Source of the DNA: Candidatus Marinacidobacterales bacterium
Lineage (GTDB): Bacteria > Acidobacteriota > Vicinamibacteria > Marinacidobacterales > DATDRI01
Direction: 5' to 3'
DNA: 64,000 bases
Assembly: GCA_965219415.1 (NCBI GenBank)
Contig: CBDCNP010000002.1
Location: forward strand, 4,416,001-4,480,000
Shown here: positions 33,478-61,024 of the stretch, one piece after another
Layout: each line of letters begins with the position of its first letter
Position numbering within the stretch: position 1 is the first letter of the stretch
Notes under the pieces: generated by a model
Told to the model about the DNA's origin: nothing
Seen by the model: only the letters and a program-made list of their open reading frames with translations
Database searches by the model: none
Position numbers and translations under genes: made by a program

Positions 33478-33617
33478 GGCGGCTCGGGCTCAATAGTTGC
33501 CCTCCGCTACCTCTTGGGTGCTTCCGCCATCAAGTGATGGAATGGACTCCTCCACTGACATAGACGGCATCGATGTGCCAAAGTCAGTCGAATACGCATC
33601 GAAAAGGAGGAGTCCGA

Positions 33618-34649
33618 ATGAAAGATACGACAATCGCTGTGGATCTTGCAAAGAACGTCTTCGAGATTGCCATCTCGGGAGAAGCGGGGAAGGTGTCCAA
33701 GCAACTCCGTGTGAGTCGACCCAAATTGGTGTCGTTCTTTGCCAAACAGAGCGCTGCCACCGTGCTTCTCGAAGCCTGCGGCTCGGCTCACTTCTGGGCA
33801 AGGACGTTCCGAAGGTTGGGACACGACGTCGTCCTGCTCCCACCTCACCTCGTGAGGCCGTATCGACGCGGGAGCAAGAACGACCGCGCCGACACGAAGG
33901 CGTTGCTCGAGGCCTACAGGAACGAGGAGCTTCTTCCCGTACCCATCAAGTCCGTGCACCAGCACACCCTCGCTGCGCTCCATCGCCTGCGCTCAGGATG
34001 GCTCTCCACACGGACCGCACGCATCAATGCCGTACGCGGGCTCCTGCGCGAACTCGGATTCATCATCCCAAAGGGCGCTCACTTCGTCGTGCCCGCCCTC
34101 TTCGAACTCGTCGAAGACGCTGATTCTGATTTGCCCGACGTGCTCCGTTCGCATCTCCGTGATGCCTGCTCCGAGATTCGAGAACTCAAGGACAAGTGCG
34201 CTAGCATCGAGCACGAGCTCAAGGCGCTCACCAAGCAGCTTCCTGAAGTCCAACGACTTCTCGCCATTCCCGGCATCGGACTTCTGGCCGCGACCGCCAT
34301 CGTGGGCTTCGTCGGCGATCTTCGCCGCTTCCCATCGGGGCGCCGCTTCTCGAGCTACCTCGGCCTAGTTCCCAAGGAAAACTCCAGTGGCGACATTCGC
34401 CGCCTCGGACGCATCACCAAGCGTGGCGACTCCTACCTCCGTATGCTCCTCACCCAGGGCGGGCGCGCCGTGCTCCGCGCGGCGAACGTCAGCAAGAGCC
34501 CGCCCGACAAGCTCCGCGCCTGGGCTCGGAAGGTCCACCGCTCGCGGGGACACAACAAGGCCGTGATTGCTGTCGCCAACAAACTCGCCCGGATCGTCTG
34601 GGCCGTCTCCACCCGCGAGAGTGAATTCCAGTCGCCGGTGGCCGCTTAG
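33618..34649 (+). CDS. IS110 DEDD recombinase/transposase
   Basis: AVDLAK, LEAC, KNDRAD, LGLVPKENSSG, AVANKLARI; AGGAGG RBS before ATG 33618. Confidence 0.95.
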   Translation: MKDTTIAVDLAKNVFEIAISGEAGKVSKQLRVSRPKLVSFFAKQSAATVLLEACGSAHFWARTFRRLGHDVVLLPPHLVRPYRRGSKNDRADTKALLEAYRNEELLPVPIKSVHQHTLAALHRLRSGWLSTRTARINAVRGLLRELGFIIPKGAHFVVPALFELVEDADSDLPDVLRSHLRDACSEIRELKDKCASIEHELKALTKQLPEVQRLLAIPGIGLLAATAIVGFVGDLRRFPSGRRFSSYLGLVPKENSSGDIRRLGRITKRGDSYLRMLLTQGGRAVLRAANVSKSPPDKLRAWARKVHRSRGHNKAVIAVANKLARIVWAVSTRESEFQSPVAA

Positions 34650-35709: not shown

Positions 35710-36162
35710 ATGGAAAAGCTCGACACCGAAAAGACTGTCAAAATACTAAATACGATCTTGGAGCAGGAGCTCGCGGGGGTTGTTCGCTACACGCACTATG
35801 CGCTCATGGTGACCGGCCCCAATCGGCTGCCGATCGTGGAATTCATGAAGGCACAGGCATCCGAGTCCTTGGACCATGCTCAACAGGTGGGTGAGATTCT
35901 GACCGGCCTTGGTGGCCACCCATCGCTCAGTGTGGCACCTCTCAAGGAGACCTTTCAGCATTCGCTCAAAGCGATTCTCCAGGAAAGCGTGAACCACGAG
36001 AAAAACGCTGTGAAGCTCTATATCGAGCTCCTCGAAGCGGTAGAGAATTCCAGTATCTACCTAGAGGAGTTCGCGCGCACCATGGTCGGGCAAGAGGAGC
36101 TTCACCAGATGGAGCTCAGGAAGATGCTCCGCGACTACAGCGAGGCATCCGGCGCCGACTAG
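35710..36162 (+). CDS. Bacterioferritin/ferritin-like protein
   Basis: ELAGVVRYTHY, ESLDHA, HEKNA, QEELHQ di-iron ligand pattern. Confidence 0.9.
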   Translation: MEKLDTEKTVKILNTILEQELAGVVRYTHYALMVTGPNRLPIVEFMKAQASESLDHAQQVGEILTGLGGHPSLSVAPLKETFQHSLKAILQESVNHEKNAVKLYIELLEAVENSSIYLEEFARTMVGQEELHQMELRKMLRDYSEASGAD

Positions 36163-36277
36163 CCATCTCCGCATTTCGTCGATGTCCCTGGTTCGAAGCC
36201 TTTTCTACGTGTGGGAGAAGCGGCTCGCACGGTCGAGGGCTACACACCAACATCTCCATCGACCAACTTGCCGATCG

Positions 36278-36766
36278 CGTCGTGTCCAAAAACACAAACA
36301 CACTCAAGACCCACGCGCCGGGACGCATAAGGGGAAGATTTTGTATTGCAGTAGGTTACATCAGATTCTAATATCACCGGTGTGCCTTCTATTTATTTAT
36401 CCGCGCGCACCAAACTTGAATAATCTCCGGTCTGCCAGCACCATGCCGGCATGATTTCGTCGTTGGTTCCCGCTCTCATCTCCGCCTTCAAGGCTCGTCG
36501 CGAGCTGGCTCTCGAGAATGTCGCTCTTCGGCAGCAGCTCGCCGTCCTCCGCCGTTCCGTGAAACGGCCACGGCTCTCGAATGTCGACCGCGTGTTTTGG
36601 GTGCTGTTGCGCAGAATCTGGACTGACTGGGAGAGCGTCCTCGTCCTGTGCCAAAACTCGGCCCAGCCGGCATCGACGAAAGAACTGCGCCTCTCGAAAT
36701 CAGGCTCAAACTCTAGCACGCGAACGGGATACACGGCAGGCGCCAACATTTGACTGCGGAAGCACC
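36278..36766 (+). repeat. Linker cluster: E end (36278), IS-C stub (36381-36641), hybrid MITE H = A end plus D1 right half (36642-36766)
   Basis: Matches other copies in the window. Confidence 0.88.
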
Positions 36767-36880
36767 CGAGTTCCATTCTTCGCCGCTTGTACGCTACTAG
36801 GTGGAGGACCGCGATATGCGTCTCCATCGCGCGCAATCGACCGAGAGAACGACGGCATAGCCTGTGAGAGGTAAGATAAG

Positions 36881-37837
36881 ATGCGACACTTCCCCATTCC
36901 CGTATGGATCGCTGTGCTCGCCACGGGCTCGTGGCACAACCCCGCCACGGCCCAGACGTCGTGGCGGGGCTTGGTGGTTGCCCCCGAATCCCGTTGCTCC
37001 CCGTACGATGCTGACGACTATCGGTATCCGCAGTCTGTGGAGGACCGGGTCATCGCCGAGCTTGGCGGCGTCTATGGTCCCTACACGGGCCGCTGGTTCG
37101 CCAACAAACGGGAGACGGACATTGAACATATCGTCGCCCGCTCCGAGGCACACGACAGCGGACTTTGTGTGGCGGATGAAGCGACCCGCCGACGCTTCGC
37201 AACGGATCTGCTGAATCTGACGCTGGCAAGTCCCGGCGTGAACCGGAACCAGAAGCGCGCTCGGGATGCCGCGGAGTGGTTACCCGACCAGAACCGGTGC
37301 TGGTTCGCAGACCGTAGCGTCGCTGTCCGCCGAAAGTACGGTCTGACGATAGACGAGCGCGAAGCAGACACCCTTGAACGCGTGTTGTCTGGATGCCAGT
37401 CGACCGACCTCGTCATGGTGGCCCGTGGTGCCTCACCGGTCGCTCAGGACATCACCCCGACGGCCGCCGCTGCGCGTGAGATACTCACCCAGTGGGACGA
37501 CAACGACGATGGCCGTATCACGTGCGCCGAGGCTCGCACCCATGGGATCGCCCCGGTGCGCCGCGACCATCCGGCCTACGCCTATATGCGCGATGGTGAC
37601 GGCGACGGGATTGTCTGCGAAGCGGGTGGCGGTGAGGCCAAGGGCGGCACGGCGCGCCAAGGCTCGGCCCCCGCGACCAGCGGCAGTAGCGCGCTCCGTC
37701 AGTACGACGACAACGGCAACGGCCGCATCACTTGCGCTGAAGCACGGCGCCACGGGATCGCGCCAGTGCGCCGCGGCCATCCTGCGTATCCCTACATGCG
37801 AGATGCCGACGGGGACGGAGTTGTCTGCGAGCGCTGA
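36881..37837 (+). CDS. Secreted HNH-type (DUF1524-like) nuclease with two Excalibur/EF-hand Ca-binding repeats
   Basis: Signal peptide, DIEHIVA...NLTLASPGVNRNQK..DAAEWLP; twice DDNxxGRITCAEAR.HGIAPV...MRDxDGDGxVCE. Confidence 0.82.
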   Translation: MRHFPIPVWIAVLATGSWHNPATAQTSWRGLVVAPESRCSPYDADDYRYPQSVEDRVIAELGGVYGPYTGRWFANKRETDIEHIVARSEAHDSGLCVADEATRRRFATDLLNLTLASPGVNRNQKRARDAAEWLPDQNRCWFADRSVAVRRKYGLTIDEREADTLERVLSGCQSTDLVMVARGASPVAQDITPTAAAAREILTQWDDNDDGRITCAEARTHGIAPVRRDHPAYAYMRDGDGDGIVCEAGGGEAKGGTARQGSAPATSGSSALRQYDDNGNGRITCAEARRHGIAPVRRGHPAYPYMRDADGDGVVCER

Positions 37838-37844
37838 ACGGCGT

Positions 37845-38009
37845 CCTGTCGATGACAAACGCGACGTAGACGAAACCTTGCCACGTCGCAACGTAGGTGA
37901 GATCTGCCACCTAAAGGGCGTTCGGGCGGGCTGCTCGGAAGTCGCGACCGACCAGGTCCGGTGGTCGCAACGCCGCCTCATCCGGGAGCGTCGTCTTGAA
38001 CTGCTTTCC
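37845..38009 (-). pseudogene. IS3-family orfB internal fragment
   Basis: DLVGRDF...VADLTYVATWQGFVYVAFVID, cut by the A end at 38010. Confidence 0.8.
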
Positions 38010-38086
38010 CGTCCTGTGCTAAAACTCAGCCCTTTTGAAATAGGCCATAAATCAGCAGCTTGGTGTCTGTGTTTGCGACCGGGCCC
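38010..38086 (+). repeat. A end plus IS-B leader stub
   Basis: Matches the start of IS-B at 26906. Confidence 0.88.
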
Positions 38087-38107
38087 TTAGCTCCTGGAAA
38101 CAAGATT

Positions 38108-38434
38108 TCAACCCTTGACGAGCTTGAGCGCCCTCTTGGCAAGCACGGTCACGACCCCGGCATAAAGAGAGGTACTGACCTGATCGACGATGGCGTCCAG
38201 GGAACCGCCAATCACTTGGATGTGACTCAGTACGTCCGCACCTGCAGTAGCGCCGACTGCAAGAGTCAATACCAAGTAGGCTGTCGCGTCCTCAGCGTCG
38301 ATCGCCAAACCGCCATACACCAAGCCCAGAACAACCAGTGCGAGGGCCACGATCCCAGCGGGAACTGCCTCAGCGGCCAAGCCCTGCACAATCGCCAATA
38401 GCCAGATGAGGCCAACAATGATTCTGATTGCCAT
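38108..38434 (-). CDS. Small membrane protein, unknown function
   Basis: 108 aa with 3-4 hydrophobic helices; AGGAG RBS. Confidence 0.75.
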   Translation of the reverse strand: MAIRIIVGLIWLLAIVQGLAAEAVPAGIVALALVVLGLVYGGLAIDAEDATAYLVLTLAVGATAGADVLSHIQVIGGSLDAIVDQVSTSLYAGVVTVLAKRALKLVKG

Positions 38435-38499
38435 TTTTATCTCCTAGAATAGTTGCGTGTGATGGCCCGCTCCGTCGGCCAGCCGTAACAGTCACGGAC

Positions 38500-38953
38500 G
38501 GGGTAACAGGGCCGCCGGAATTGTACCAATACGGGCCCGATGCGTCGCCGATCATCGAATCAAGCACCAACCAGGCCGTGGTCAGCAAGGCCAGCGAATG
38601 GAGCCCGGTGTACCCCCCGACCGAGTTCATCTCGAGCTACCGCGCCCTCCAATTCTTCGTAAACGTATACTACGACTTCGCGAACGACTCCCTTTGGACG
38701 TCCTCCGTGGGCGCGGGCTTCGGTATGGCCCGCACCAACCTCCACTACAGCAGGCGTTTGCTGCGCAAGGCGATCGCCCAAGGGTACCAGGACGTCGAGC
38801 CGCCGCTCACTGTCGCCGACAGGCCGACACGGGCCGCCGGCACGTTAAGCCTGCTGGAAACCACGGCCACCAGCACGCCGCTCGGCTTTCAGGTGCTGGG
38901 CGGTGTGGATTACGCCGTCGACGAACGGACCTCGATTAGAATCAACGCGCACT
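38500..38953 (+). pseudogene. Fragment of an opacity-type outer-membrane beta-barrel
   Basis: FFVNVYYDF...VGAGFG...GFQVLGGVDYAV; no start, 3' end replaced by intron sequence. Confidence 0.7.
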
Positions 38954-39426
38954 GGGCCCCTTTGCTCCACGGGCGTTGCCCCGTTTCAACGCTACTACGG
39001 ACCCAGCCGCCACCGTCTCGTCTTCGACCGTTTTCCCGGGGCCTCCGGTTATGCGGTCTACCTTGCTCCGTCGATTTCTCGACGGGACGAGGACGGCTTC
39101 TCCAGTGGCTTGGTATGTCCTTGTCACCGTGCTGTCCCTACCACCCCGCCAGAGGGATGTGCCTCATCAGATAGTCTGACAACACATCCTGTTGCCTTCG
39201 TCCGACACGAGAAAACTCGGCCTCTGGGGTCTATTTTTTTGTCGGGGCCACCTATGGGTTCACTTGTGTTACGGCCCGGTGACTCGCTCACCATCCTCAA
39301 GATGGCTTTGTCAGTCAGCTTCATCCGTCTCGTTTCCTCCACGAACGTGACTCAAGCTACGGGGCGCTAACTTTTTCCCCGGTGGGACTCTCTCCCACTG
39401 AACATGCCAGCCTTCGCTGGACGCAC
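38954..39426 (-). ncRNA. Group II intron, 5' part (domains I-III), no RT ORF or DV/DVI
   Basis: 5' GTGCG at 39426; GCCGAG-loop-CGAAGGC carrying EBS1 TCGTGTC; EBS2 CAAAAA; domain III-like CGTAGTAGCG..GAAACGGGGCAACGCCCGTGGAGCAAAGGGGCCC. Confidence 0.88.
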
Positions 39427-39458
39427 TCGTGTCCAAAAACACAAACGAACTCAAGACC
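39427..39458 (+). repeat. E end lacking its first 2 bp (5' exon of the intron)
   Basis: TCGTGTCCAAAAACACAAACGAACTCAAG. Confidence 0.9.
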
Positions 39459-39497
39459 CGCAACGCCACTCATCGCCGCGGCCTTGCTTCCTTAGGT

Positions 39498-40005
39498 TTA
39501 TTCTTTTACCGTGATTGTGATGGTTTCGCAGAGGCCGGGCTCGTCCAGGGTCCGGTGCTCGCCGTCTCCGAGCTGGAGCGCGAGCGTGTGCTCACCGGGA
39601 GTAAGTTTGCATTTCGATGACCGCAGAACCGTCCCCGAAGTGAACCCAAGGGTCGGCCTCGGGAATGAGCTCGCCAACGGGAAGGCATTCTGTATCGACA
39701 CCGATGTGATGGTGTCCGGCGCCAGGGTGGACGTCGCCCTTCGGCTCGAGAGTGATGTTCTCGGAGCCGAACTCGAAGGCGACCGGTGACGTGACGACTG
39801 CCCCTTGCTCCGGCTGGATGAACCAGACGCGCGGGGCGCCCGAGCCCTCCATATCCATCTCGTGCTCTGCCTCTTCGGTCGCGGCCTCTTCACCGCTTCC
39901 TCCGCCCGAAGAGCAGGCTGCCGCGAAGCCCATCGCGAAAACACAGGCCAATCCGATTGCGCAGGTTCCAAACCAAGTCGCCGGATGGCAGTGATTTTTC
40001 GACAT
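39498..40005 (-). pseudogene. DUF4399 lipoprotein, frameshifted near 39605
   Basis: Lipobox FAAAC, GHHHIGVD, HFGDG / LTPGEHTLALQLGDGEH. Confidence 0.82.
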
Positions 40006-40102
40006 TTCTAGACTCTCCTAATGGTCAGCGTTGTGCACCGTCCGCCTCCGTGCTGGCAGCGGCGGCTGCGCAAGAAGGTACCATCCTAGGGCCCCACAAG
40101 GT

Positions 40103-40557
40103 CGTCGTGTCCGAAAATTCGAACTGAGCCGAAAGACCGAATCCTGGAGGCGTTGTCGAAATTTGCGGAGACCAGCCGACGCGTCACAAGGTCTGCGATA
40201 GGCCCCCCCGAGCAGACCTCTCCTCCAAACCATCCGTTCCGTCCAGCTCGCGCGCCCGAACTCCTATGCCGCCGCGCGGTGATAATAGCGGAGCAAGCCG
40301 CCCAATCGCTTACGACATCGCACCTTCCCGTGGGGACTGCCGACGCATTCTTCCGCTTCGAGCAACGCGTTCCCGAGCCCTTGATGGTTGCGCTCTCCGT
40401 GATAATGATGGGTAAACTCGGCGACGGCACGGCGCAACGATGGCTCACCGAAGAAGATCATCCGATTCAGACACTCGCTCTTGATCGACAAAACAAACCT
40501 GTCGATATAGGCGTTCAGATTCGGAGAACGGTACGGCAGCCGAATGACATCTGTTCC
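40103..40557 (-). mobile_element. 3' fragment and right end (CGTCGTGTCCGAAAA) of another rve transposase element
   Basis: SPNLNAYIDRFV...ERNHQGL...RLGGLLRYY. Confidence 0.85.
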
Positions 40558-40705
40558 CGTCCTGTGCCAAAACTCAGCCCTTTTGAAATAGACCATAAAT
40601 CAGCAGCTTAGACGCCGTTGGAATCGGCGCAGAATCCAGGCTATTTCGCGCCGCAGGGCTGACTTCCGACCCATGGGGCTGGCGGATGAATAAATAGAAG
40701 GCACA
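40558..40705 (+). mobile_element. Hybrid MITE A-C
   Basis: Matches 11638-11786. Confidence 0.9.
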
Positions 40706-41816
40706 GGTCATCGAAACGACGAAAGTCGTGGGCGAGTTCGGGGGAGTCTACGCCAGCCACCAGCGCAACGAGTTCGATCGTGTCCCCGAGGCTACCCGGG
40801 AGACTATTCGCATCGCCGAGGAAGCCGATGTGCGAGTTCTTACGTCTCATCTCAAGGCGTGTCGCAAGAACGCTTGGGGCATGATGAAAGAGGTCGTCGA
40901 CGTCATCAACGATGCCCGGGCAAGAGGAGTCGACATCTTCGCCGACATGTATCCCTACCACTACGCGTCGGGAGGACGGATCATACCGATCGCCAGAAAC
41001 CGCGGCTGGGCCCCTTTTCATCTTCCGAGCGATATGGAGCCGTTCGCGGGGCTCAGAGAGAAGTTGTCCGAACGGGACCTGAAGGACGCAGAGAAGAAGT
41101 CTATCAGAGAACAGTATGTCGCCGAGCTCGCAAAGGCCCTGTCGGATGAGTCGAAACGCCAGCAGATAAGGCAGTCCGTACTGGTCGGCAGCCCTCAACA
41201 CCCGAGCTCGGTGGCCCAGGCGGGTTGGGATAGTTATCTGGTCGTCGTGGCGGAGAAGAATGCGCAGTTAATCGGAAAAATCCTTTCTGACATCGCGGCA
41301 GAACAGGGGAGAGATCCGTTCGATGTCGCGGCAGACCTCGTACTTGAGGAACCCGACCTGTACGTCGCCTGCGGCGTCATGTCGGAAGACGACATGGTGC
41401 ACGCGATGAAGGAAGATTGGCTGATGTTCTCGAGTGATGGCGATGCGTTGCCAATTCCGAAAGACACCGACGACCCCGTAATCGGTCACCCTCGCGCGTT
41501 CGGCAGTCAGGCCAGGGTGCTCCGGAAATTCGTCAGGGAAGACAAGGTTCTGACGCTCGAGGATGCGGTGAAGAAAATGACTTCCCTTCCGGCCGAGTTC
41601 CTCCAATTGAAGGACCGGGGCTTGCTCGCCGAAGGATACAAGGCCGATCTCGTGATATTCGACCCCGAGACCGTTCAGGATACCGGCACTCACACGGATG
41701 CGCGTCAGTACAGCAGGGGGACCGAGGCCGTGATCGTAGGTGGAAAGATAGGCATCGAGAGCGGCGAATATAATGGCGCGCTCGACGGAAAACTTCTGCT
41801 GCTTACGGAGAACTAA
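40706..41816 (+). pseudogene. N-acyl-D-amino-acid deacylase (amidohydrolase), 5'-truncated by A-C
   Basis: YASHQRNE, SHLKA, DMYPY, SSDG, HPRAFG, KMTSLPA, ADLVIFDP; N-terminal metal motif missing. Confidence 0.87.
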
Positions 41817-42196
41817 AGGATGTCTGGCTGCTCTGGAGAGTCGAAGTACAGTTTCTGGCCAGGGCTCAGTTGCCGTGCTGTTCGCACGATCCTTCTGGAG
41901 TGGAGAGAGCGAACGTTCGACACGTCTGTAAATACCGGGGGCATTCAAGGGGTCCGGCTAGCCAGGTGACTTTCTCCCTGCCATGCTTGGGCATGACGAG
42001 AGCCCTCCGAGTTCGCCAGATCTACGACCATAGGCTGCGCGATGCCATCGCTGCGACGGGTAATGCGGACCTGTTCCGGAACGTTGCGATCCCGGCATCG
42101 ACGCGACGCACGTGAGCGCGTGGCGAGGTGCGGCCCGTGGTCGCTTCGGTGGACGTTGAGCTATCGGATTGCTGGCGCGGCTGTTGAAGCTTCGTG

Positions 42197-42993
42197 GGCC
42201 AGACGATTGTAAAGCCCACGGCCCTTGGCCCGGTCGCAAACACAGACACTAAGCTGCTGATTTATGGCCTATTTCAAAAGGGCTGAGTTCTGGCACAGGA
42301 CGGGGTAGATCTACGTCAGAGGGTTCACAGCCCTGACGTGGTGAATCAGCAGAAAACCCAGATGCGCGTCCGTCGCGGTTCCCGTCCTGTGCCAAAACTC
42401 GGCCCAGCCGGCATCGACGAAAGAACTGCGCCTCTCGAAATCAGGCTAAAATTCTAGCACGCGAACAGGTTACGCGGCGGCCGCCAACACTTGACTGCGG
42501 AAGCACCCATCGGTGCATCGGTTGCGTGACCTTCATCATTATTGTGGTCGGCACCCTGAGCATCAGCGGGGGAACCGTCCAGCGCAGCGGGCTTCTGGTC
42601 AGGCTCCATCGTTGTCCTCCGCCGTGATTCGGCCACGGGTGCTCCGCGATAGGCGGGGCGGACACGGACTCTATGCCGTCCTGTGCCAAAACTCGGCCCT
42701 TTTGAAAGACCATGGCTGTAATTTAATGCACCGTAAAGTCTCAGTGTCATTTTACCAACACTTAATGGCGGAAGCACCCATGAGGTCTGTGTGAGCGGCA
42801 GGGCTGCCCGATCGAACAACGGTTGCCTGACCAACAGTAGGAATTGCACATGGTACGTCATGATGGACCCGAAGATAACACCCTCGGGCCAGACGATTGT
42901 AAAGCCCACGGCCCTTGGCACCATCGCAAAACACAGACGCTAAGCTGCTGATTTATCGGCTATTTCAAGAGGGCCGAGTTTTGGCACAGGACG
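42197..42993. repeat. Dense linker cluster: reverse A/IS-B leader (to 42302), H (42383-42507), G (42512-42676), A stub (42677), D2 half (42713-42778), reverse IS-B start (to 42993)
   Basis: All modules match other copies in the window. Confidence 0.88.
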
Positions 42994-43001
42994 GGGTTAA
43001 A

Positions 43002-44048
43002 CTAACGCGGACCTATCTCGACGTTTCGGTAGACCGCACCCACGATCGATTCCCGTCGCTCCTGGATGCCGAGTTCCACGTAAAGCACTGCCGTTTTGTA
43101 GGCGCGTCTGTAATTGATGCGGATCACGCTCTGCCCTTGCAAAAAAACGCGGACCACATGACCATCGCCTTCTTTCCCCCATTCGAGCCGCCAGCGGTAC
43201 ACTGTGTTGGCGTTCCACTCAATGAAATTGAATCCTCGATCAGATTCTTCGCCGTTGGAGATCCAGCGGAGGCGAACGAACGGGGGATTATGCCGCCGGT
43301 CCAGCTTCTGTAGGTGCACCCGAAACGGGTTAGTGCGATACCGTCCCTCGGTCGGATCCCACATTCCTAACAGCATGAACTGATCCGGAGACGCGTTGAG
43401 TGGTTTGAGCCCCAAATTCTCCCACTCCACGAAGCCTTTCACCAAACTCGAGAGTTCGTAGCGGATGAAATCCTCGCTCCTGGTCACTTCCCACCCTCGA
43501 GGGGTGAACTTGCCACCACTCACCTGACCCAACGAGGTGCCGTTGGTGAGGGGGTCCACGATCTCCTCCGTCACCTCTGGCTCGGTTGGTGGCGGGGGCG
43601 GCGTGGCGTTCGGGTTTACGGTGAACCAAGAATTGCTGAACGGTCCCTCTCGATTCTCGAGATGTGCCTGAACCCTCCAATGATAGTCGCCTTCTGGAAG
43701 CGCCGACGGCACACGCCACTGGGCACGCCCATTTCCGCGCGGCTCGACCCTGCCCGAAGCTGCGATCAAACCGTCGAATCGGGAGTTTCGGGACACCTGA
43801 AACGTGTAGACCGCTCCCGGGGCATTGGTCGCGTCGCCAGCGATCAGGGTTGGGCGGATACCCACTTCCTCGCCGGCATCCGGCTTGTAAAGGGTCGGTG
43901 CGCCGAGGACGGGGCCCGGTTGATCGTCACCCGGAGGGGGATCACTGCCAATCGGGGTTTCGCCGCCCAAGCAGGACAACTGAAAGAGCAAAAGAACGAA
44001 AGGCGGGAAAACGTATTTCGGTTGCTGAAGTAAGAAACCTCGTTTCAT
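43002..44048 (-). CDS. Hypothetical exported protein/lipoprotein with Ig-like domain and Pro-rich linker
   Basis: Long ORF, possible lipobox QLSC, YTFQVS...YHWRVQA; start uncertain. Confidence 0.7.
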   Translation of the reverse strand: MKRGFLLQQPKYVFPPFVLLLFQLSCLGGETPIGSDPPPGDDQPGPVLGAPTLYKPDAGEEVGIRPTLIAGDATNAPGAVYTFQVSRNSRFDGLIAASGRVEPRGNGRAQWRVPSALPEGDYHWRVQAHLENREGPFSNSWFTVNPNATPPPPPTEPEVTEEIVDPLTNGTSLGQVSGGKFTPRGWEVTRSEDFIRYELSSLVKGFVEWENLGLKPLNASPDQFMLLGMWDPTEGRYRTNPFRVHLQKLDRRHNPPFVRLRWISNGEESDRGFNFIEWNANTVYRWRLEWGKEGDGHVVRVFLQGQSVIRINYRRAYKTAVLYVELGIQERRESIVGAVYRNVEIGPR

Positions 44049-44227
44049 GATCGACATCATCCGGCAAACGATGCGCGGCACGCGTGTATCTAGCGCCGAC
44101 AACCTGCTGGCCCTCCACCTGCTCGAATCTCCGAAGCTCGGTAAGCCCATCACCATCCTACATCACTGCACGCATGACGGTCGAGCCTTGCGCCTGCTGA
44201 CGCTAGTCGACGAATACACCAAGGAGT

Positions 44228-45195
44228 CGTGAGGTCAAAATACTCATGCGGCTTCCCGATGGTAGAAACGTAGTAACCCGCCAAGCCGTTCACGGGAGCG
44301 CACCTTGCGCTCGGACTGAGGTAACTGGTCGCTGGCTGGGAACAGCAGCAGATTCTCCTTGCCTTGATGATTCCTCTCGTGGTGATAGTAGACGACGTAC
44401 TCCCTAAGCGCATGACGGAGCGACTTCTCGCCGAACAGGATGAGCTTCGAGAGACATTCCTCTTTGACTGACTTCACCCAGCGCTCCGCGAACGAGTTCA
44501 AATCCGGGCTCCGTGCGGGCAGCTTGACGGGCGCGACGCCAACCGCCTCGATGGTCCGGTGGAACGACTCGCAGAACTTCGTGTCTCGGTCGTGAATGAG
44601 GTATCGGCTCGAGGACAGAAAGCCGACATCCGCCATGGTCACGTTGCGAGCCACTTGAGTCATCCAACTGTTCGTTCGGATGCGGCGTGATGCCGGCAAC
44701 GTGGACTCGACGGGTAGCCAGGTGTATGAAGAACAGAACGTAGTACGTCACCAACCCGCCCTGAGTCCACACTTCCGTGGTGAAAAAATCTGTTGCCGCG
44801 AGGACGTCCATGTGCGAGCGGATGAACTCCCTCCACGTCGTGGTCTTACGACGCTCTGGTGCGAGCGGAATGCCGTGGCGTTTCAGAATGTTACCGACGG
44901 TTTGATCGGCTACTTCATGCCCGAGGTTGGCTAGCGCCCCGGCAATCCGGTCGTAACCCCAGGATTTGTTCTCCTTGGCGAGACGCACCACCAGTTCTTC
45001 GATGTCGGCGTCGACCCGCGGTCGCCCTGGATACTGACGGTTCTTGGAGCCATCGAACTTCTTCGCGACAAGCCTCCGGTGCCAACCTAGGATCGTGTCG
45101 GGGTTCACGATACTCGCGACCTCATCAAGGGCTTGCTTACCCAGACGCTTTCCGAGCTCGGCCAGAGACCGCCGTTCGCCATCGGTCAGAGTCGG
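44228..45195 (-). mobile_element. IS-D: 5'-truncated, frameshifted rve transposase with right end CGTGAGGTCAAAATACT
   Basis: ORFs 44404-45234 and 44244-44699: KFDGS, WGYDRI, TDFFT, HDRD, AERWV, RLGGLL. Confidence 0.88.
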
Positions 45196-45204
45196 GGCAC
45201 CACG

Positions 45205-45397
45205 TCGAGGGGTTGATGTAGTACGACTGGCCATAGTGTTTCCGGATGTGGTCTACAAGCTTCTGCCCGTCGTCCGCATAACCGCCGTCCACAACGTATA
45301 TACAGTCGCCGCCGTTGTGGCGTCGGCGGACTGCGATGGCGTCTCCACTGCCGCTGTCCCCTGCCTCGATGAAGTCGATTTCGATGAAGTCCGTCAT
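45205..45397 (-). pseudogene. 5' stub of a ComEC-like metallo-beta-lactamase-fold protein
   Basis: IDFIEAG..SGDAI...VVDGGY, fused onto IS-D sequence. Confidence 0.7.
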
Positions 45398-45713
45398 CTC
45401 AAGCGCTCTTGTTGCTCTTCTTGTTGCCCGAACGCGTACCCAGGGACGATCCCTTGCACGACATGACCTTGCCTTCGAAGTCGAGCGAGAGCGCTTCACC
45501 TTGCCACCACTCTCGGTCCACGCCATCGAGGGTGGCAGGTACGACGTGCACGAGGTCTCCAGCGCGATAGCCTTCGGACAGCGCGACTATTGCTGCTGTC
45601 CTACTCATCTCTTGAGGTCAAAATGTTGCGATTCGCGGTCGAGCAGGCATCCAAGTATGCCTCACCGCACGGCTTGATCTGCCAAAGGCACTGTGTCCAT
45701 CCCCGAGACCTGC

Positions 45714-46609
45714 TCAACTGGCCTCGAACGTAAACTGAACTCGATAGATGCCTACGCCCTGTGGTATCCCCCCACCAATCCACACCTCATAGCGCCCAGA
45801 GCGGTTGAGTTTCTTCTTCGTGCGCACGGTCCCTCTGCCCATGTCGCCTTCTATTTTTTTCCCGTCGGGAGCCACGACCGTTGTGTGGAGCAACGCGAGT
45901 CCGCGCTGTTTCTCGACGTTAATAATCAACTCACCTGGCTGCTCGATCTCAAGTAGGTAGCATCGTTGAAGGCACCGGCTGTGCTCTTGTCAAGCGTAGC
46001 GGGCATGAGCACATCACCTGCGCCCAAGCGCCCGGTCGTCGAGAAGCTGTGGCTTTCAATCATCTGGTGTTCGTCACTCTCACGATGGTTCGCGGAACTT
46101 TCTCTTCGGAGGAACTGCGCGTATTCCGTCCACCCACGGGCGCTCTCGATGTATCGGTTCCCGTCTCTCCATTGGTTTATGGCCGCTTGGTAGTCCTGGA
46201 TGGCAAGAGCGAACGCCAGCTTCACATCTGCCCATTCGTCGCCGGTCGACTTGATATAGCTTGTTACCGTAGGCATCGTTTCGACGAGCCTCTCGTTGAA
46301 CTGCTCCCGCAAGAGACCGATCTCAAGTGAAGCTTGAAACTCCTCGATTGCGGCGAAGGCGGATTTGAATTCTGTTGACTCACTCTCAACATCGTCACTG
46401 CCTTCTAGTTTGCCCGCGAAAGAAATGTACTTGACGTTGTCAGTCGGAATGCTGATTTTCTGCCCCGCGATCACAACGGAAACAGAGTCGTTGGTCGCCC
46501 CGCCGAACGTACCCTCAACCGAGTCTCCATCTTTCGTTGCGACAGAAACTTTCCGTTCTTGTGCTATGGCAATCCCTACCGTCGCGCCCAGGACGGCGAC
46601 GAAACACAT
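45714..46609 (-). pseudogene. Hypothetical exported protein, apparently frameshifted near 45950
   Basis: Signal-like N-terminus; continues in ORF 45714-45929. Confidence 0.5.
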
Positions 46610-49561: not shown

Positions 49562-50067
49562 CGTTCCCGGTAGGGTCGAGGGCTGGCGCGGTGCTCCGTA
49601 GGCGCGGCCTATCTGTTTCTCCCCGTTTCCTGTGGGAGTTGTGCTCCGCGAAAAGTCGATCCAGCATCGATTGCGCGGTTTAGATCTGCCATGAGAGGGG
49701 AATACGGTGGCGGCGAAGACCGGACACATACCGGCGCGGGGCCGAGCTGGAGCGGGACAACCGGAAGATCGATGTCAACGTCGCGGTTAGCTATGCGCTC
49801 GACGAGCGGCTGGGGGTGTGGGTCCCCGTCGAGATGAGAGAGGCCTACGGCGACGGGCGACGACCGCTTGATGCACGGCCACCTATCACAACTACCGGCG
49901 TTTCGGTGTCGACGCCCGCGTGCTGACGCCCTGCGACTAGCTATCCCACCGGTGCTTGCGTTGTTTGCTGTTGGTGATGTGTACGTATCCCTTTGCAAAA
50001 AAAGCGCTTACGCTCCATTTACTGTGCGGCGAAGGTCGTGAGCGCTATTTTGGCTGTAATTTAATGC

Positions 50068-52152: not shown

Positions 52153-53049
52153 CGTCCTGTGCCAAAACTCGGCCCAGCCGGCATTGACGAAAGAACTGCG
52201 CCTCTCGAAATCAGGCTAAAATTCTAGCACGCGAACAGGTTACGCGGCGGCCGCCAACACTTGACTGCGGAAGCACCCATCGGTGCATCGGTTGCGTGAC
52301 CTTCATCATTATTGTGGTCGGCACCCTGAGCATCAGCGGGGGAACCGTCCAGCGCAGCGGGCTTCTGGTCAGGCTCCATCGTTGTCCTCCGCCGTGATTC
52401 GGCCACGGGTGCTCCGCGATAGGCGGGGCGGACACGGACTCTATGCAGTCGGACGCGGATGCCCGAACTCGTCTACTGGATGACCCGCCGCCAATAGCGC
52501 CTTCTGAATACTCCGCAGAACATCGGGTGCTTTCAGCATTTCGCTACTAAAGTGAGGATTGGAGGGGAGCACCAAGTCGCATACACGTCCATTTTTATCC
52601 AGTTTGTAGAATATGACAGTGGCTTGTCGGTGCTTCCGCCATTAAGTGTTGGTGAGATGACGCTAAGACTTTACGCTGCATTAAATTACAGCCAAAATAG
52701 AGCTCACGACCTTCGCCGCGCGCTAAATGGAGCGTAAGCGTGTTTTTTGCAAAGGGATACGTACATATCACCAACAGCAAACAGCGCAAGCACCGGACGG
52801 TGTTTCCCAGCGCGTACGGGGGAACCCGAATCGCCGCCTGCGGGGCGCACTCAAGAACCTCAAACACAGACACTAAGCTGCTGATTTATGGTCTATTTCA
52901 AAAGGGCCGAGTTTTGGCACAGGACGGGGAACCCGAATCGCCGACATCGCCTCCGACACACCCCAGAACTGGGGCTCGCCACAAGTCGATGACGATCGAA
53001 ACGGCCCGGCGCGCCAGTCTTGAGTTCGTTTGTGTTTTTGGACAGGACG
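52153..53049. repeat. Linker cluster: H (52153-52277), G (52282-52446), reverse D2 (52629-52794), reverse A (to 52926), reverse E (to 53049)
   Basis: Matches other copies in the window. Confidence 0.88.
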
Positions 53050-60575: not shown

Positions 60576-61024
60576 CGTCCTGTGCCAAAACTCGGCCTTT
60601 TAGAAATAGACCACAAATCAGCAGCTTAGACGCCCTTGGAATCCGCGCAGAATCCAGGGTATTTCGCGCCGCAGGGCTGACTTCCGACCCATGGGCTGAC
60701 GGATGAATAAATAGAAGGCACAGCGCGAGGATGGGGGGACCGCCTAATGGAATAACTAAATTATGTCTAAACATAAAAAATAATGTGTTTACAGTAGTTT
60801 AACTGGACACTATAATTCAGCGTTGCGCGGGTTCCTACGCCCTTGGGAATCCGCGCAGAATCCAGGGTATTTCGCGCCGCAGGGCTGACTTCCGACCCAT
60901 GGGGCTGGCGGATGAATAAATAGAAGGCACAACCGCTTCCATTGGCCAACCAAGCGTAGACACCTCTAATCCGAAACGTCCCGGCGCTACGGTCTTGAGT
61001 TCGTTTGTGTTTTTGGACACGACG
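60576..61024. repeat. MITE A-C (60576-60722), AT-rich insert, partial A-C (60837-60931), reverse E (to 61024)
   Basis: Matches other copies in the window. Confidence 0.88.

What the first reader, a model, noticed from the sequence alone, without database searches (positions are those of the whole stretch)
38954..39458. Group II intron whose EBS1/EBS2 match the E transposon end it sits in
Seen (minus strand): the 5' exon ends ...GTGTTTTTGGACACGA|GTGCG, i.e. the E end cut 2 nt from its tip. Intron EBS1 TCGTGTC (plus-strand 39204-39210) pairs with GACACGA, and candidate EBS2 CAAAAA (39236-39241) pairs with TTTTTG, giving 13 contiguous exon positions. Known: EBS-IBS pairing determines retrohoming sites, and introns often home into IS coding regions or attC sites. 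Inference: this intron is adapted to a multicopy terminal inverted repeat. E copies at 36278 and 61024 carry the full IBS and are unoccupied predicted targets.
Basis: partly seen in the sequence, partly recalled or inferred. Interest (0 to 1): 0.8.

Follow-up and report, generated by a model that had tools for sequence, protein, structure and literature searches.

The report
Dead intron in a transposon end
A broken copy of a self-splicing, mobile group II intron sits exactly in the terminal repeat of a very abundant transposon that its RNA is built to recognise; it is a good new example of a strategy already shown in Sinorhizobium.

Summary
On the minus strand, GTGCG starts at 39426, directly after ...TTTTTGGACACGA. 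Rfam D1-D4 model RF02003 scores 120 bits. EBS1 (39204-39210) and the A-run EBS2 (39235-39241) are complementary to the last 13 exon bases.

The exon is the terminal inverted repeat (TIR) of an rve-type DDE insertion sequence and its MITEs. The genome holds 248 such ends, and 227 of them are followed by CG. The intron lies 2 nt from the tip.

- In 17 related introns with different exons, EBS1/IBS1 pairs in 98% of cells and EBS2/IBS2 in 92%, with compensatory changes at all 12 positions. My choice of rows favours the EBS1 figure.
- Both EBS segments are unpaired in the consensus fold.
- 16 of 17 near-identical copies in relatives sit at the same TIR position, in at least 10 different contexts.

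Three caveats apply:
- The window copy is a dead 473-nt 5' fragment.
- The element is an ORF-deleted, non-autonomous derivative of about 898 nt.
- No cognate reverse transcriptase was found in this genome or in five relatives.

The strategy is already published for RmInt2 in the ISRm17 inverted repeats (PMC4615759). I rate this a new member of a known kind, of moderate interest.

The parts
38954..39426 (-). 5' fragment (nt 1-473 of about 898; domains I-III) of an ORF-deleted group II intron, truncated at 38954. It lacks domains IV-VI, so it can neither splice nor move.
   Evidence: RF02003 scores 120 bits at 39264-39400. No D5/D6 match was found in 36000-42000. It is 99% identical to nt 1-473 of the complete copy at G000:C3:4235463-4236360.
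39204..39210 (-). EBS1 (UCGUGUC), complementary to the last 7 exon bases GACACGA.
   Evidence: It lies in a 9-nt terminal loop in the consensus fold. It covaries with the exon in relatives.
39235..39241 (-). EBS2 region (C + A-run), complementary to exon TTTTT(G). The family register pairs exon -13..-9.
   Evidence: It is unpaired in the consensus fold. Covariation: AAAAA/TTTTT, AUUUA/UAAAU, GAAGU/ACUUC.
39427..39458 (-). The conserved part of the E end (the transposon's terminal inverted repeat), serving as 5' exon. IBS1 is 39427-39433 and IBS2 is 39435-39439. The last two TIR bases (CG) are missing here, because the intron's 3' part and the 3' exon are lost.
39427..40092 (-). 666-bp unit (E end plus a 157-aa DUF4399 ORF at 39498-39971). 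It is present, together with the intron's start, at two other loci: G000:C3:2955129-2955882 and 5493567-5494278. There the intron is cut after nt 89 and nt 47.
36278..36292 (-). Unoccupied E end with perfect IBS2-IBS1-CG.
61010..61024 (+). Unoccupied E end with perfect IBS2-IBS1-CG.
53035..53049 (+). Unoccupied E end of the GGACAGGA variant. It has one mismatch to this intron's EBS1 and matches the EBS1 variant UCCUGUC seen in a relative.
49570..49639 (-). Second remnant of the same intron in the window: its last 70 nt (nt 829-898, 100% identical). It is followed by CGGG and preceded by the end of another insertion sequence.
   Evidence: G000:C3:4465570-4465639.

Best explanation
The feature is the 5' remnant of a non-autonomous group II intron. 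The intron is ORF-deleted, about 898 nt when complete, and IIB-like with an EBS2. It derives from a lineage whose intron-encoded protein (IEP) has reverse transcriptase and maturase domains but no endonuclease domain.

Its natural homing site is the terminal inverted repeat of an abundant rve-type DDE insertion sequence and its MITEs. The intron RNA recognises the repeat by base pairing. EBS2 pairs with exon positions -13..-9, and EBS1 pairs with -7..-1. A C at +1 is invariant and is presumably IBS3. The intron reverse-splices between ...GGACACGA and CG, 2 nt from the transposon tip.

Because the site lies in an inverted repeat, every element offers it in both orientations. That suits an endonuclease-less intron, which must prime on the nascent lagging strand. 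This last step is inferred from published work on RmInt1/RmInt2, not shown here.

The ORF-deleted form must have been moved by a protein supplied in trans. In this genome no such protein is left. The copies are being broken up by other insertion sequences, and the window copy is dead.
For: Shown:
- Intron identity and exact junction.
- Complete ORF-deleted copy in this genome. The IEP's N-terminal 27 aa and C-terminal about 38 aa are fused, and D5 and D6 are present.
- The TIR nature of the exon. A 1344-bp element with inverted E ends encodes a 371-aa protein with rve_3 and HTH domains. There are also 124-125-bp MITEs and 42-bp minimal elements.
- 16 of 17 5' junctions of the near-identical intron are in E ends of different subfamilies, across six genomes and two families.
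- In this genome 21 of 24 3' junctions are followed by CG.
- EBS1 tracks the target. UCGUGUC pairs with GACACGA. UCCUGUC pairs with GACAGGA in a 98%-identical ORF-deleted copy (L054). UGCUGUC pairs with GACAGUA, and UCCUUUC with GAAGGGA.
- Formal count on 17 sequences: 96.3% of cells paired, against 63.3% in shuffles (0 of 500 reach the observed value) and 41-51% when slid by 1-3 columns.
- Unselected tally in the wider family: 75 of 80 loci gave an N-terminal match and 23 of those 75 were parsed. Of the 23, 15 have 7/7 EBS1 pairs, 4 have 6/7 and 4 have 5/7. The control with exons dealt to other introns gives 7/7 in 1.3%.
- Full-length RT-encoding relatives sit in E-like TIRs in MAGs labelled Gemmatimonadota and Bryobacterales. 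One lies directly after the transposase stop codon, and its EBS1 UAGUGUC matches GACACUA.
- The IEP of the closest autonomous relative has RVT_1 and GIIM domains, scores 344 bits on TIGR04416, and has no endonuclease domain.

Inferred: lagging-strand priming, mobilisation in trans, and IBS3.
Against: - No cognate IEP was found in this genome. None was found in five relatives that carry complete copies, where the best other IEPs are 33-40% identical and one truncated copy is 68% identical. None with >=95% nucleotide identity was found among the 55 genomes of the order, and none above 84% among the 80 metagenome loci kept. How the ORF-deleted form moved is therefore unexplained.
- Several occupied sites share both flanks. 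Three loci in this genome share a 666-bp unit, and L033, L052 and L055 (G018) share both flanks, with L038 (G026) sharing the 3' flank. Part of the copy number therefore comes from duplication rather than homing.
- The rows for one search were chosen by me, mostly from those already showing 7/7 EBS1 pairs, so its EBS1 figure is inflated. EBS2 was not a selection criterion.
- Only 23 of the 75 wider-family loci with an N-terminal match could be parsed by my pattern.
- Splicing and mobility were not observed. RF00029 (D5/D6) scores only 24 bits on the complete copy, although autonomous relatives also score low (31 bits or no match).
Confidence: 0.85

Rival explanations
1. Hitch-hiking. One ancient insertion into one E end was spread passively by transposition, segmental duplication, recombination between E ends and horizontal transfer of the transposon. 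On this view the intron is not 'adapted' to the repeat.
For: - Three loci in this genome share the 666-bp unit plus the intron start.
- Copies in G018 and G026 share flanks.
- No cognate RT was found in six genomes.
- Copies are 98-99% identical across genera.
Against: - There are at least 10 different upstream E-end subfamilies and 12 different 3' flanks.
- An insertion 2 nt inside the tip separates the transposase binding part from the cleavage site, so the composite should not transpose as a unit (inference).
- The EBS1 G-to-C change exactly matches the GGACAGGA target variant in L054.
- There is one ectopic site with a partial IBS match, 4 of 7 (L036), as expected of retrotransposition.
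- Relatives with other exons have matching EBS1 and EBS2.
Confidence: 0.08
2. The intron is of the IIC kind. It recognises the GC-rich hairpin inside the E end (CCCGGCGCGCCGGG) plus a short IBS1, as IIC introns do with terminators and attC sites, and the EBS2 match is accidental.
For: - The IEP's best matches among solved structures are IIC reverse transcriptases: GsI-IIC RT at 1.6e-49 and 7uim at 6.6e-44, against the IIB T.el4h protein at 1.2e-31.
- Many E ends carry a GC-rich palindrome upstream.
Against: - The insertion point is about 30 nt downstream of the palindrome, not directly after it.
- Several occupied E-end subfamilies lack that palindrome, for example the ...GGTGGATAGAGTCTTCGAGGG and ...CATCAAGGGCTTGGCAACGCC types.
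- EBS2/IBS2 shows compensatory changes at all 5 positions and 91.7% of cells paired.
Confidence: 0.03
3. The fragment has been put to a new use, for example as a structured RNA or as part of the + strand ORF 38428-39174, and is kept for that reason.
For: A 248-aa + strand ORF runs across the truncation point.
Against: - That ORF has no Pfam match.
- The sister copies are cut at other positions, nt 47 and nt 89.
- The region is a dense pile of nested repeats.
Confidence: 0.02

Closest known systems
RmInt2 of Sinorhizobium meliloti GR4 (bacterial class D group II intron) in the inverted repeats of ISRm17 (PMC4615759; passages read)
   Same: - The IEP lacks an endonuclease domain.
- All copies lie inside the inverted repeats of one insertion sequence, so each element offers two sites on opposite strands.
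- The target is recognised through EBS1, EBS2 and EBS3.
- An ORF-deleted RNA can be mobilised by IEP given in trans, and some related IEPs cross-complement.
   Different: - It is a different intron lineage. Our closest autonomous IEP is only 38% and 28% identical to the two IEPs on pSymA of strain 1021. Which of those is RmInt1 was not checked.
- Our element is a natural ORF-deleted derivative with no cognate IEP in the genome.
- The target family here includes MITEs and has about 250 ends.
- The association recurs in other phyla.
- Nothing here was tested experimentally.
ORF-less group II introns of Thermosynechococcus elongatus, mobilised in trans (PMC2882425; search listing and abstract only)
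   Same: These are non-autonomous derivatives that proliferate within a genome by relying on the protein of related introns, with EBS divergence to new sites.
   Different: In that genome RT-encoding family members are present. Here none was found. The targets there are not a transposon end.
Group IIC introns at terminators and attC sites (class features from PMC4424553, passages read; the attC association from the PMC7923331 abstract)
   Same: The IEP is small and lacks an endonuclease domain. These introns insert into a repeated structural motif of another mobile element rather than into genes.
   Different: IIC introns lack EBS2 and insert directly after a stem-loop (recalled). This intron has a covarying EBS2 and inserts about 30 nt from the palindrome.
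IStrons (a group I intron fused to an IS; PMC4227781, abstract only)
   Same: A self-splicing intron is physically tied to a DNA transposon.
   Different: In IStrons the two move together as one chimeric element using the transposase. Here the intron is a separate retroelement that targets the transposon's end.

Membership tests
Group II intron (ribozyme) | 5' GUGYG and a domain I that matches a curated model | tested here: met
   GTGCG at 39426-39422. RF02003 scores 120 bits against a cut-off of 49.
Group II intron (ribozyme) | Domain V helix and domain VI with a bulged A, ending in AY | tested here: not met
   The window copy has no D4-D6. In the complete copy of the same genome, D5 and a long D6 are present and covary across 7 sequences, with 17 of 46 pairs compensatory, and the intron ends ...GACCCUAC. 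RF00029 reaches only 24 bits against a cut-off of 40. Autonomous relatives also stay below cut-off.
Group II intron (retroelement) | Intron-encoded RT/maturase in domain IV | tested here: not met
   Only aa 1-27 and 398-435 remain in the ORF-deleted copies. PF08388 gave no match in the genome, and PF00078 gave one weak match elsewhere (31 bits). The autonomous relative L040 has RVT_1 at 108 bits, GIIM at 60 bits and TIGR04416 at 344 bits against a cut-off of 300.
Group II intron (retroelement) | EBS1/IBS1 and EBS2/IBS2 pairing at the insertion site, with the EBS segments in unpaired parts of domain I | tested here: met
   Helix EBS1/IBS1 is 98.3% paired and EBS2/IBS2 91.7% paired, and all 12 pairs show changes on both sides. 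The rows were partly chosen for their EBS1 pairing.
Group IIC (bacterial class C) | No EBS2, and insertion directly after a stem-loop (recalled definition) | tested here: not met
   A covarying EBS2 is present. The site is about 30 nt from the palindrome.
Endonuclease-less bacterial classes D, E, F (PMC4424553) | IEP with RT and X domains only | tested here: met
   The IEP is 436 aa and carries RVT_1 and GIIM only. Which of these classes it belongs to was not resolved, because no class-labelled reference set was at hand.
Intron that homes into IS inverted repeats (RmInt2 kind) | Copies lie inside the TIR of one IS family, at one position, at either end | tested here: met
   16 of 17 5' junctions lie there. 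The TIR was shown by element structure. Occupied ends include a right end just after the transposase stop (L083) and an end of the left-end sequence type (copy B's subfamily matches the left end of the element at C2:13453).
Intron that homes into IS inverted repeats (RmInt2 kind) | Demonstrated retrohoming into the TIR | not testable with these tools
   This needs a two-plasmid mobility assay.
IS481 / IS3 families (for the E transposon) | Transposase reaches the curated family score | tested here: not met
   NF033577 IS481 scores 93 bits against a cut-off of 224, and NF033516 IS3 scores 80 against 160. Only rve_3 (40.8 bits) and HTH_21 pass their Pfam cut-offs. It is an rve-type DDE element of unassigned family. 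No direct target repeat is visible beyond the CG.

The most novel reading that the evidence does not exclude
The ORF-deleted intron behaves as a 'retro-MITE' that parasitises a transposon/MITE family. A single deletion derivative, 98-99% identical in at least 7 genomes of two bacterial families, kept homing into TIR variants after losing its RT; the retargeted EBS1 in L054 is the evidence. It spread between genera although none of the genomes examined encodes a cognate RT.

Behind it stands an intron clade that has co-diversified with the tips of one IS superfamily across phyla. About a third of the metagenomic relatives (about 12 of 38 by eye) sit after a ...GTTTT(N)GG...A motif.
Probability: 0.35. 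Interest if true: 0.6.

Novelty: new member of a known kind. Interest (0 to 1): 0.4.

Why it matters
This gives a second, independent and much larger natural case of a group II intron specialised on transposon inverted repeats. It comes with direct sequence evidence that EBS1 follows variants of the repeat.

It also shows layered parasitism: intron on transposon on genome, with other insertion sequences in turn breaking the intron.

The ORF-less form, spread widely without a resident RT, raises a concrete question. Which protein moves it: a distant IEP, or one visiting on a plasmid or phage?

For annotation, it shows that RF00029 misses this lineage because of a conserved insertion of about 90 nt in domain VI.

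Tried and rejected
- Whole-genome scans for RF00029, PF00078 and PF08388 and tblastn with the relative's IEP found no usable RT or D5. The RF00029 blank is not evidence of absence, since the lineage scores below cut-off even when intact.
- I searched for the autonomous parent of the ORF-deleted form and did not find it. The searches covered 41 relatives, all 55 genomes of the order, five genomes by protein, genome contigs and metagenome contigs. The best nucleotide identity among the 80 metagenome loci kept was 84%.
- Class assignment failed. The PDB ranking favours IIC reverse transcriptases, but the RNA has an EBS2. Comparison with pSymA IEPs gave 38% and 28% identity, which is not decisive. 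A literature search for class E gave nothing useful.
- Plasmid search found only 73-78% identical relatives, in Bradyrhizobium and Cupriavidus.
- RNA evidence is inconclusive. Contigs of four metatranscriptome-library runs hold pieces of this and related introns. No contig joins the two exon borders of copy B (2425 to 1526 in L032). The one joint touching 2425 goes to 1416 with 6 other letters between, at depth 2.1 and side 22, and looks like another E end. Contigs cannot show splicing, so this is no evidence either way. One DNA-type run labelled sponge metagenome holds 0.58 of the sampled words. I did not lay it and draw no conclusion about habitat.
- I considered that CG might be a 2-bp target duplication rather than part of the TIR. 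I rejected this because the CG is present at E-end/intron-fragment junctions where the intron has no CG.
- I considered that the many 5'-truncated fragments are abortive reverse transcripts. This is not supported, because most of them abut the ends of other insertion sequences.
- My first regex parse picked wrong 5' ends for L047 and L051, and one search replaced it. In alignment A3 the row L121 was misaligned at the exon, so I dropped it and realigned as A4 (17 of 18 rows).
Fig. S1 and S2 of PMC4615759, which show the ISRm17 sites, were therefore not seen.
- A literature search for intron, MITE and TIR found no further precedent. Searches made.

Full report
WHAT IS THERE. On the minus strand the sequence reads ...GTTTGTGTTTTTGGACACGA|GTGCGTCCAG.... 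The intron starts at 39426. Rfam's domain I-IV model RF02003 matches 39400-39264 at 120 bits against a cut-off of 49. No domain V/VI match exists between 36000 and 42000, even at E<=1. Comparison with other copies in the same genome shows that the similarity stops at 38954. The window therefore holds only nt 1-473 of the element. What follows 38954 is unique sequence, so the 3' part was lost by a rearrangement that I could not reconstruct.

THE COMPLETE ELEMENT. A complete copy lies at G000:C3:4235463-4236360 (copy B). It is 898 nt long and runs from GTGCG to ...GACCCTAC. Its domain IV holds only the first 27 and last about 38 codons of a reverse transcriptase/maturase, fused together. A domain V helix and an unusually long domain VI follow. 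Both are supported by compensatory changes in an alignment of 7 relatives: 46 pairs, 17 of them compensatory. RF00029 gives only 24 bits on this copy. It also gives only 31 bits on the autonomous relative L040, and nothing at E<=0.1 on L083 and L096. The low score is therefore a trait of the lineage, caused by an insertion of about 90 nt in D6, and the blank whole-genome scan does not count as absence.

The same ORF-deleted element, with the same deletion junction, occurs at 98-99% identity in G003, G014, G016, G018, G026 and G034, which belong to two families of the order. Pieces occur in G001 and G002.

RT-encoding relatives, 84-85% identical in the 5' part and 73-76% in the 3' part, are in G008, G022 and G020. 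The G008 copy (L040, 2010 nt) encodes a 436-aa protein with RVT_1 and GIIM domains and no endonuclease domain. It scores 344 bits on TIGR04416.

THE EXON IS A TRANSPOSON END. The 13-mer TTTTTGGACACGA occurs 152 times exactly and 96 times with one mismatch in the genome. Of these 248 copies, 227 are followed by CG. Pairs of such ends face each other at several spacings:
- 42 bp (minimal elements);
- 124-125 bp, in about ten MITE copies;
- 1344-1430 bp.

The 1344-bp element (L067) carries a 371-aa ORF with rve_3 and HTH_21 domains. The ORF is weakly similar to IS481 and IS3 transposases, below both curated cut-offs. A tblastn with this protein gives 248 HSPs in the genome, 27 of them longer than 300 aa. 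All are on contigs C3 and C2.

The CG belongs to the repeat. At four independent junctions an E end abuts a piece of the intron, and the CG is there although the intron has no CG at that point. No direct target repeat is visible outside the CG.

IS THE INTRON AIMED AT THIS END? Four lines of evidence say yes.

(a) Position. Among the near-identical (>=95%) copies whose 5' junction I could read in relatives and in copy B, 16 of 17 lie at exactly ...GGACA[C/G]GA| of an E end. They sit in at least 10 different upstream subfamilies. The exception is L036, which sits in an unrelated site with 4 of 7 IBS1 matches. Of the 20 3' junctions in that table, 18 are followed by CG. The two exceptions belong to the other, RT-bearing lineage. 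In this genome 21 of 24 3' junctions are followed by CG.

(b) Covariation within the close family.
- EBS1 UCGUGUC pairs with GACACGA.
- UCCUGUC pairs with GACAGGA in L054. That copy is ORF-deleted and 98% identical, so the change arose after the deletion.
- UGCUGUC pairs with GACAGUA.
- UCCUUUC pairs with GAAGGGA in the RT-bearing lineage. That lineage sits in another repeat, ...GGATGAATAAATGGAAGGGA.
- GUUUGGG pairs with CCCAUGC at 6 of 7 positions.
- For EBS2: AAAAA pairs with UUUUU, AUUUA with UAAAU, and GAAGU with ACUUC.

(c) Structure. In the RNAalifold consensus of 9 sequences (118 pairs, 21 compensatory), EBS1 lies in the 9-nt terminal loop of a hairpin whose stem covaries. EBS2 lies in an unpaired stretch.

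(d) The wider family. 80 loci from other phyla encode IEPs 45-78% identical, and 75 of them gave an N-terminal match. My pattern could parse 23 of those 75. Of the 23, 15 have 7/7 EBS1/IBS1 pairs, 4 have 6/7 and 4 have 5/7. When exons are dealt to other introns, only 1.3% reach 7/7. On a 17-row alignment the named pairs are formed in 96.3% of cells. Shuffles give 63.3% and 0 of 500 reach the observed value. Sliding by 1-3 columns gives 41-51%. All 12 EBS/IBS pairs show changes on both sides. I chose those rows mostly among the ones already showing 7/7 for EBS1, so the EBS1 figure is flattered. EBS2 (91.7%) was not a criterion. I dropped one row (L121) for misalignment.

OLDER ASSOCIATION. Two full-length RT-encoding relatives sit in E-like ends, with EBS1 UAGUGUC or UAGUGUU to match and with 3' exon CGGG. 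One is in a MAG labelled Gemmatimonadota (L083, exon ...GTTCGTATTTTCGGACACTA|). The other is in a MAG labelled Bryobacterales (L096, exon ...GTTTTGGGACACTA|). In L083 the intron follows the stop codon of a transposase that ends ...LSYYHRRAA, like the E transposase. Among 38 metagenomic relatives with a readable 5' end, 3 have E-like exons with up to 3 mismatches. About a dozen more end in a ...GTTTT(N)GG...A motif (counted by eye). This is a lead, not a result.

STATE IN THIS GENOME. No cognate RT was found. The assembly is 96% complete by marker genes. The intron is represented by one complete copy, 7 pieces that contain 5' or internal parts, and 24 pieces that keep the 3' junction. Most of the latter abut the ends of other insertion sequences.

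The window copy and two others share a 666-bp unit made of the E end and a DUF4399 gene. In those two the intron is cut after nt 89 and nt 47, the latter by an IS5-like element. These three are most simply duplicates of one insertion.

The unoccupied E ends at 36278-36292 and 61010-61024 do carry the full IBS. So do about 140 others in the genome. They are targets only if an IEP is supplied.

COMPARISON WITH WHAT IS KNOWN. Molina-Sanchez and colleagues (PMC4615759; passages read) report that all copies of RmInt2 in S. meliloti GR4 lie within the inverted repeats of ISRm17. They note that this gives two sites per element on opposite strands and so ensures one site on the lagging-strand template. 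They also report that ORF-deleted RNA moves with IEP given in trans, and that related IEPs sometimes cross-complement. The principle is therefore published and tested.

According to PMC4424553 (passages read), all introns of classes C, D, E and F lack the endonuclease domain. Our IEP fits that group, and its RNA has an EBS2, so it is not IIC. I could not assign it further.

What is new here:
- the lineage is different;
- the target family is much larger, including MITEs;
- an EBS1 variant has been caught matching a TIR variant;
- a natural ORF-less derivative has spread across genera with no resident cognate RT;
- there are hints that the intron-TIR association spans phyla.

VERDICT. The feature in the window is a dead remnant. 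It is a new member of a known kind, of moderate interest.

Noticed in passing
window 49570-49639 (-): The last 70 nt of the same intron (nt 829-898, 100% identical). It is followed by CGGG and preceded by the end of another IS (...TTTTCGCGGAGCACA).
   Followed up: partly
G000 genome-wide: Pieces of the intron that keep the 3' junction (24) far outnumber pieces with 5' or internal parts (7 besides the complete copy). Their 5' break points recur at intron nt 788-795, 826-829 and 840, inside the domain VI insertion. There they abut the ends of several different IS families. The domain VI insertion may be a preferred IS target.
   Followed up: no
G000:C3:3297943-3298057, 4523670-4523784, 4938938-4939052, 4166193-4166286: A 94-115-nt internal piece of the intron (nt 229-343) is embedded in another repeat with a very AT-rich flank. 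One copy lies about 3.2 kb from the only RVT_1 match of the genome, which is weak (C3:3294405-3294785, 31 bits).
   Followed up: no
G000 contigs C1, C2, C3: E ends and the rve transposase are almost confined to C3 and C2. Only 2 of 206 E ends and 0 of 248 transposase HSPs are on the 2.07-Mb contig C1. C1 may have a different history, or it may not belong to the same organism; contamination is estimated at 8.45%.
   Followed up: no
window 36000-46000: This region is a dense pile of nested repeats. Examples are a unit of about 150 bp at 40555-40705 (about 100 listed copies), units at 36381-36645 and 42676-42997, and an element of about 960 bp at 44228-45189 with more than 10 copies. An IS110-family transposase lies at 33573-34649.
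   Followed up: no
window 40103-40557: A fragment of an E-type IS. It has the end variant CGTCGTGTCCGAAAA... and the last 97 codons of the transposase at 88% identity. It starts about ten bases beyond the end (40092) of the 666-bp unit that carries the intron.
   Followed up: partly
L040, L047, L051; G000:C3:2464262-2464421: The RT-bearing sister lineage sits in a second repeat, ...GCGC[G/C]CGGATGAATAAATG[G/A]AAGGGA|. It looks like another IS end, since similar ends abut intron pieces in this genome. A diverged 5' fragment, 90% identical, lies in this genome after ...GTTTATGGAAGGGA.
   Followed up: partly
L081-L160, L164-L243: Many relatives from other phyla share a different recurrent exon...GGAAA(A)CC(G)NNCGT(A/C)CGGTT|. 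This suggests a second conserved target for this intron clade.
   Followed up: no
G018:C1:1062082-1063238: An intron copy is split by an insert of about 220 bp, and 10 intron bases (nt 608-617 of the query) are present on both sides. This looks like a small element with a 10-bp target duplication.
   Followed up: no
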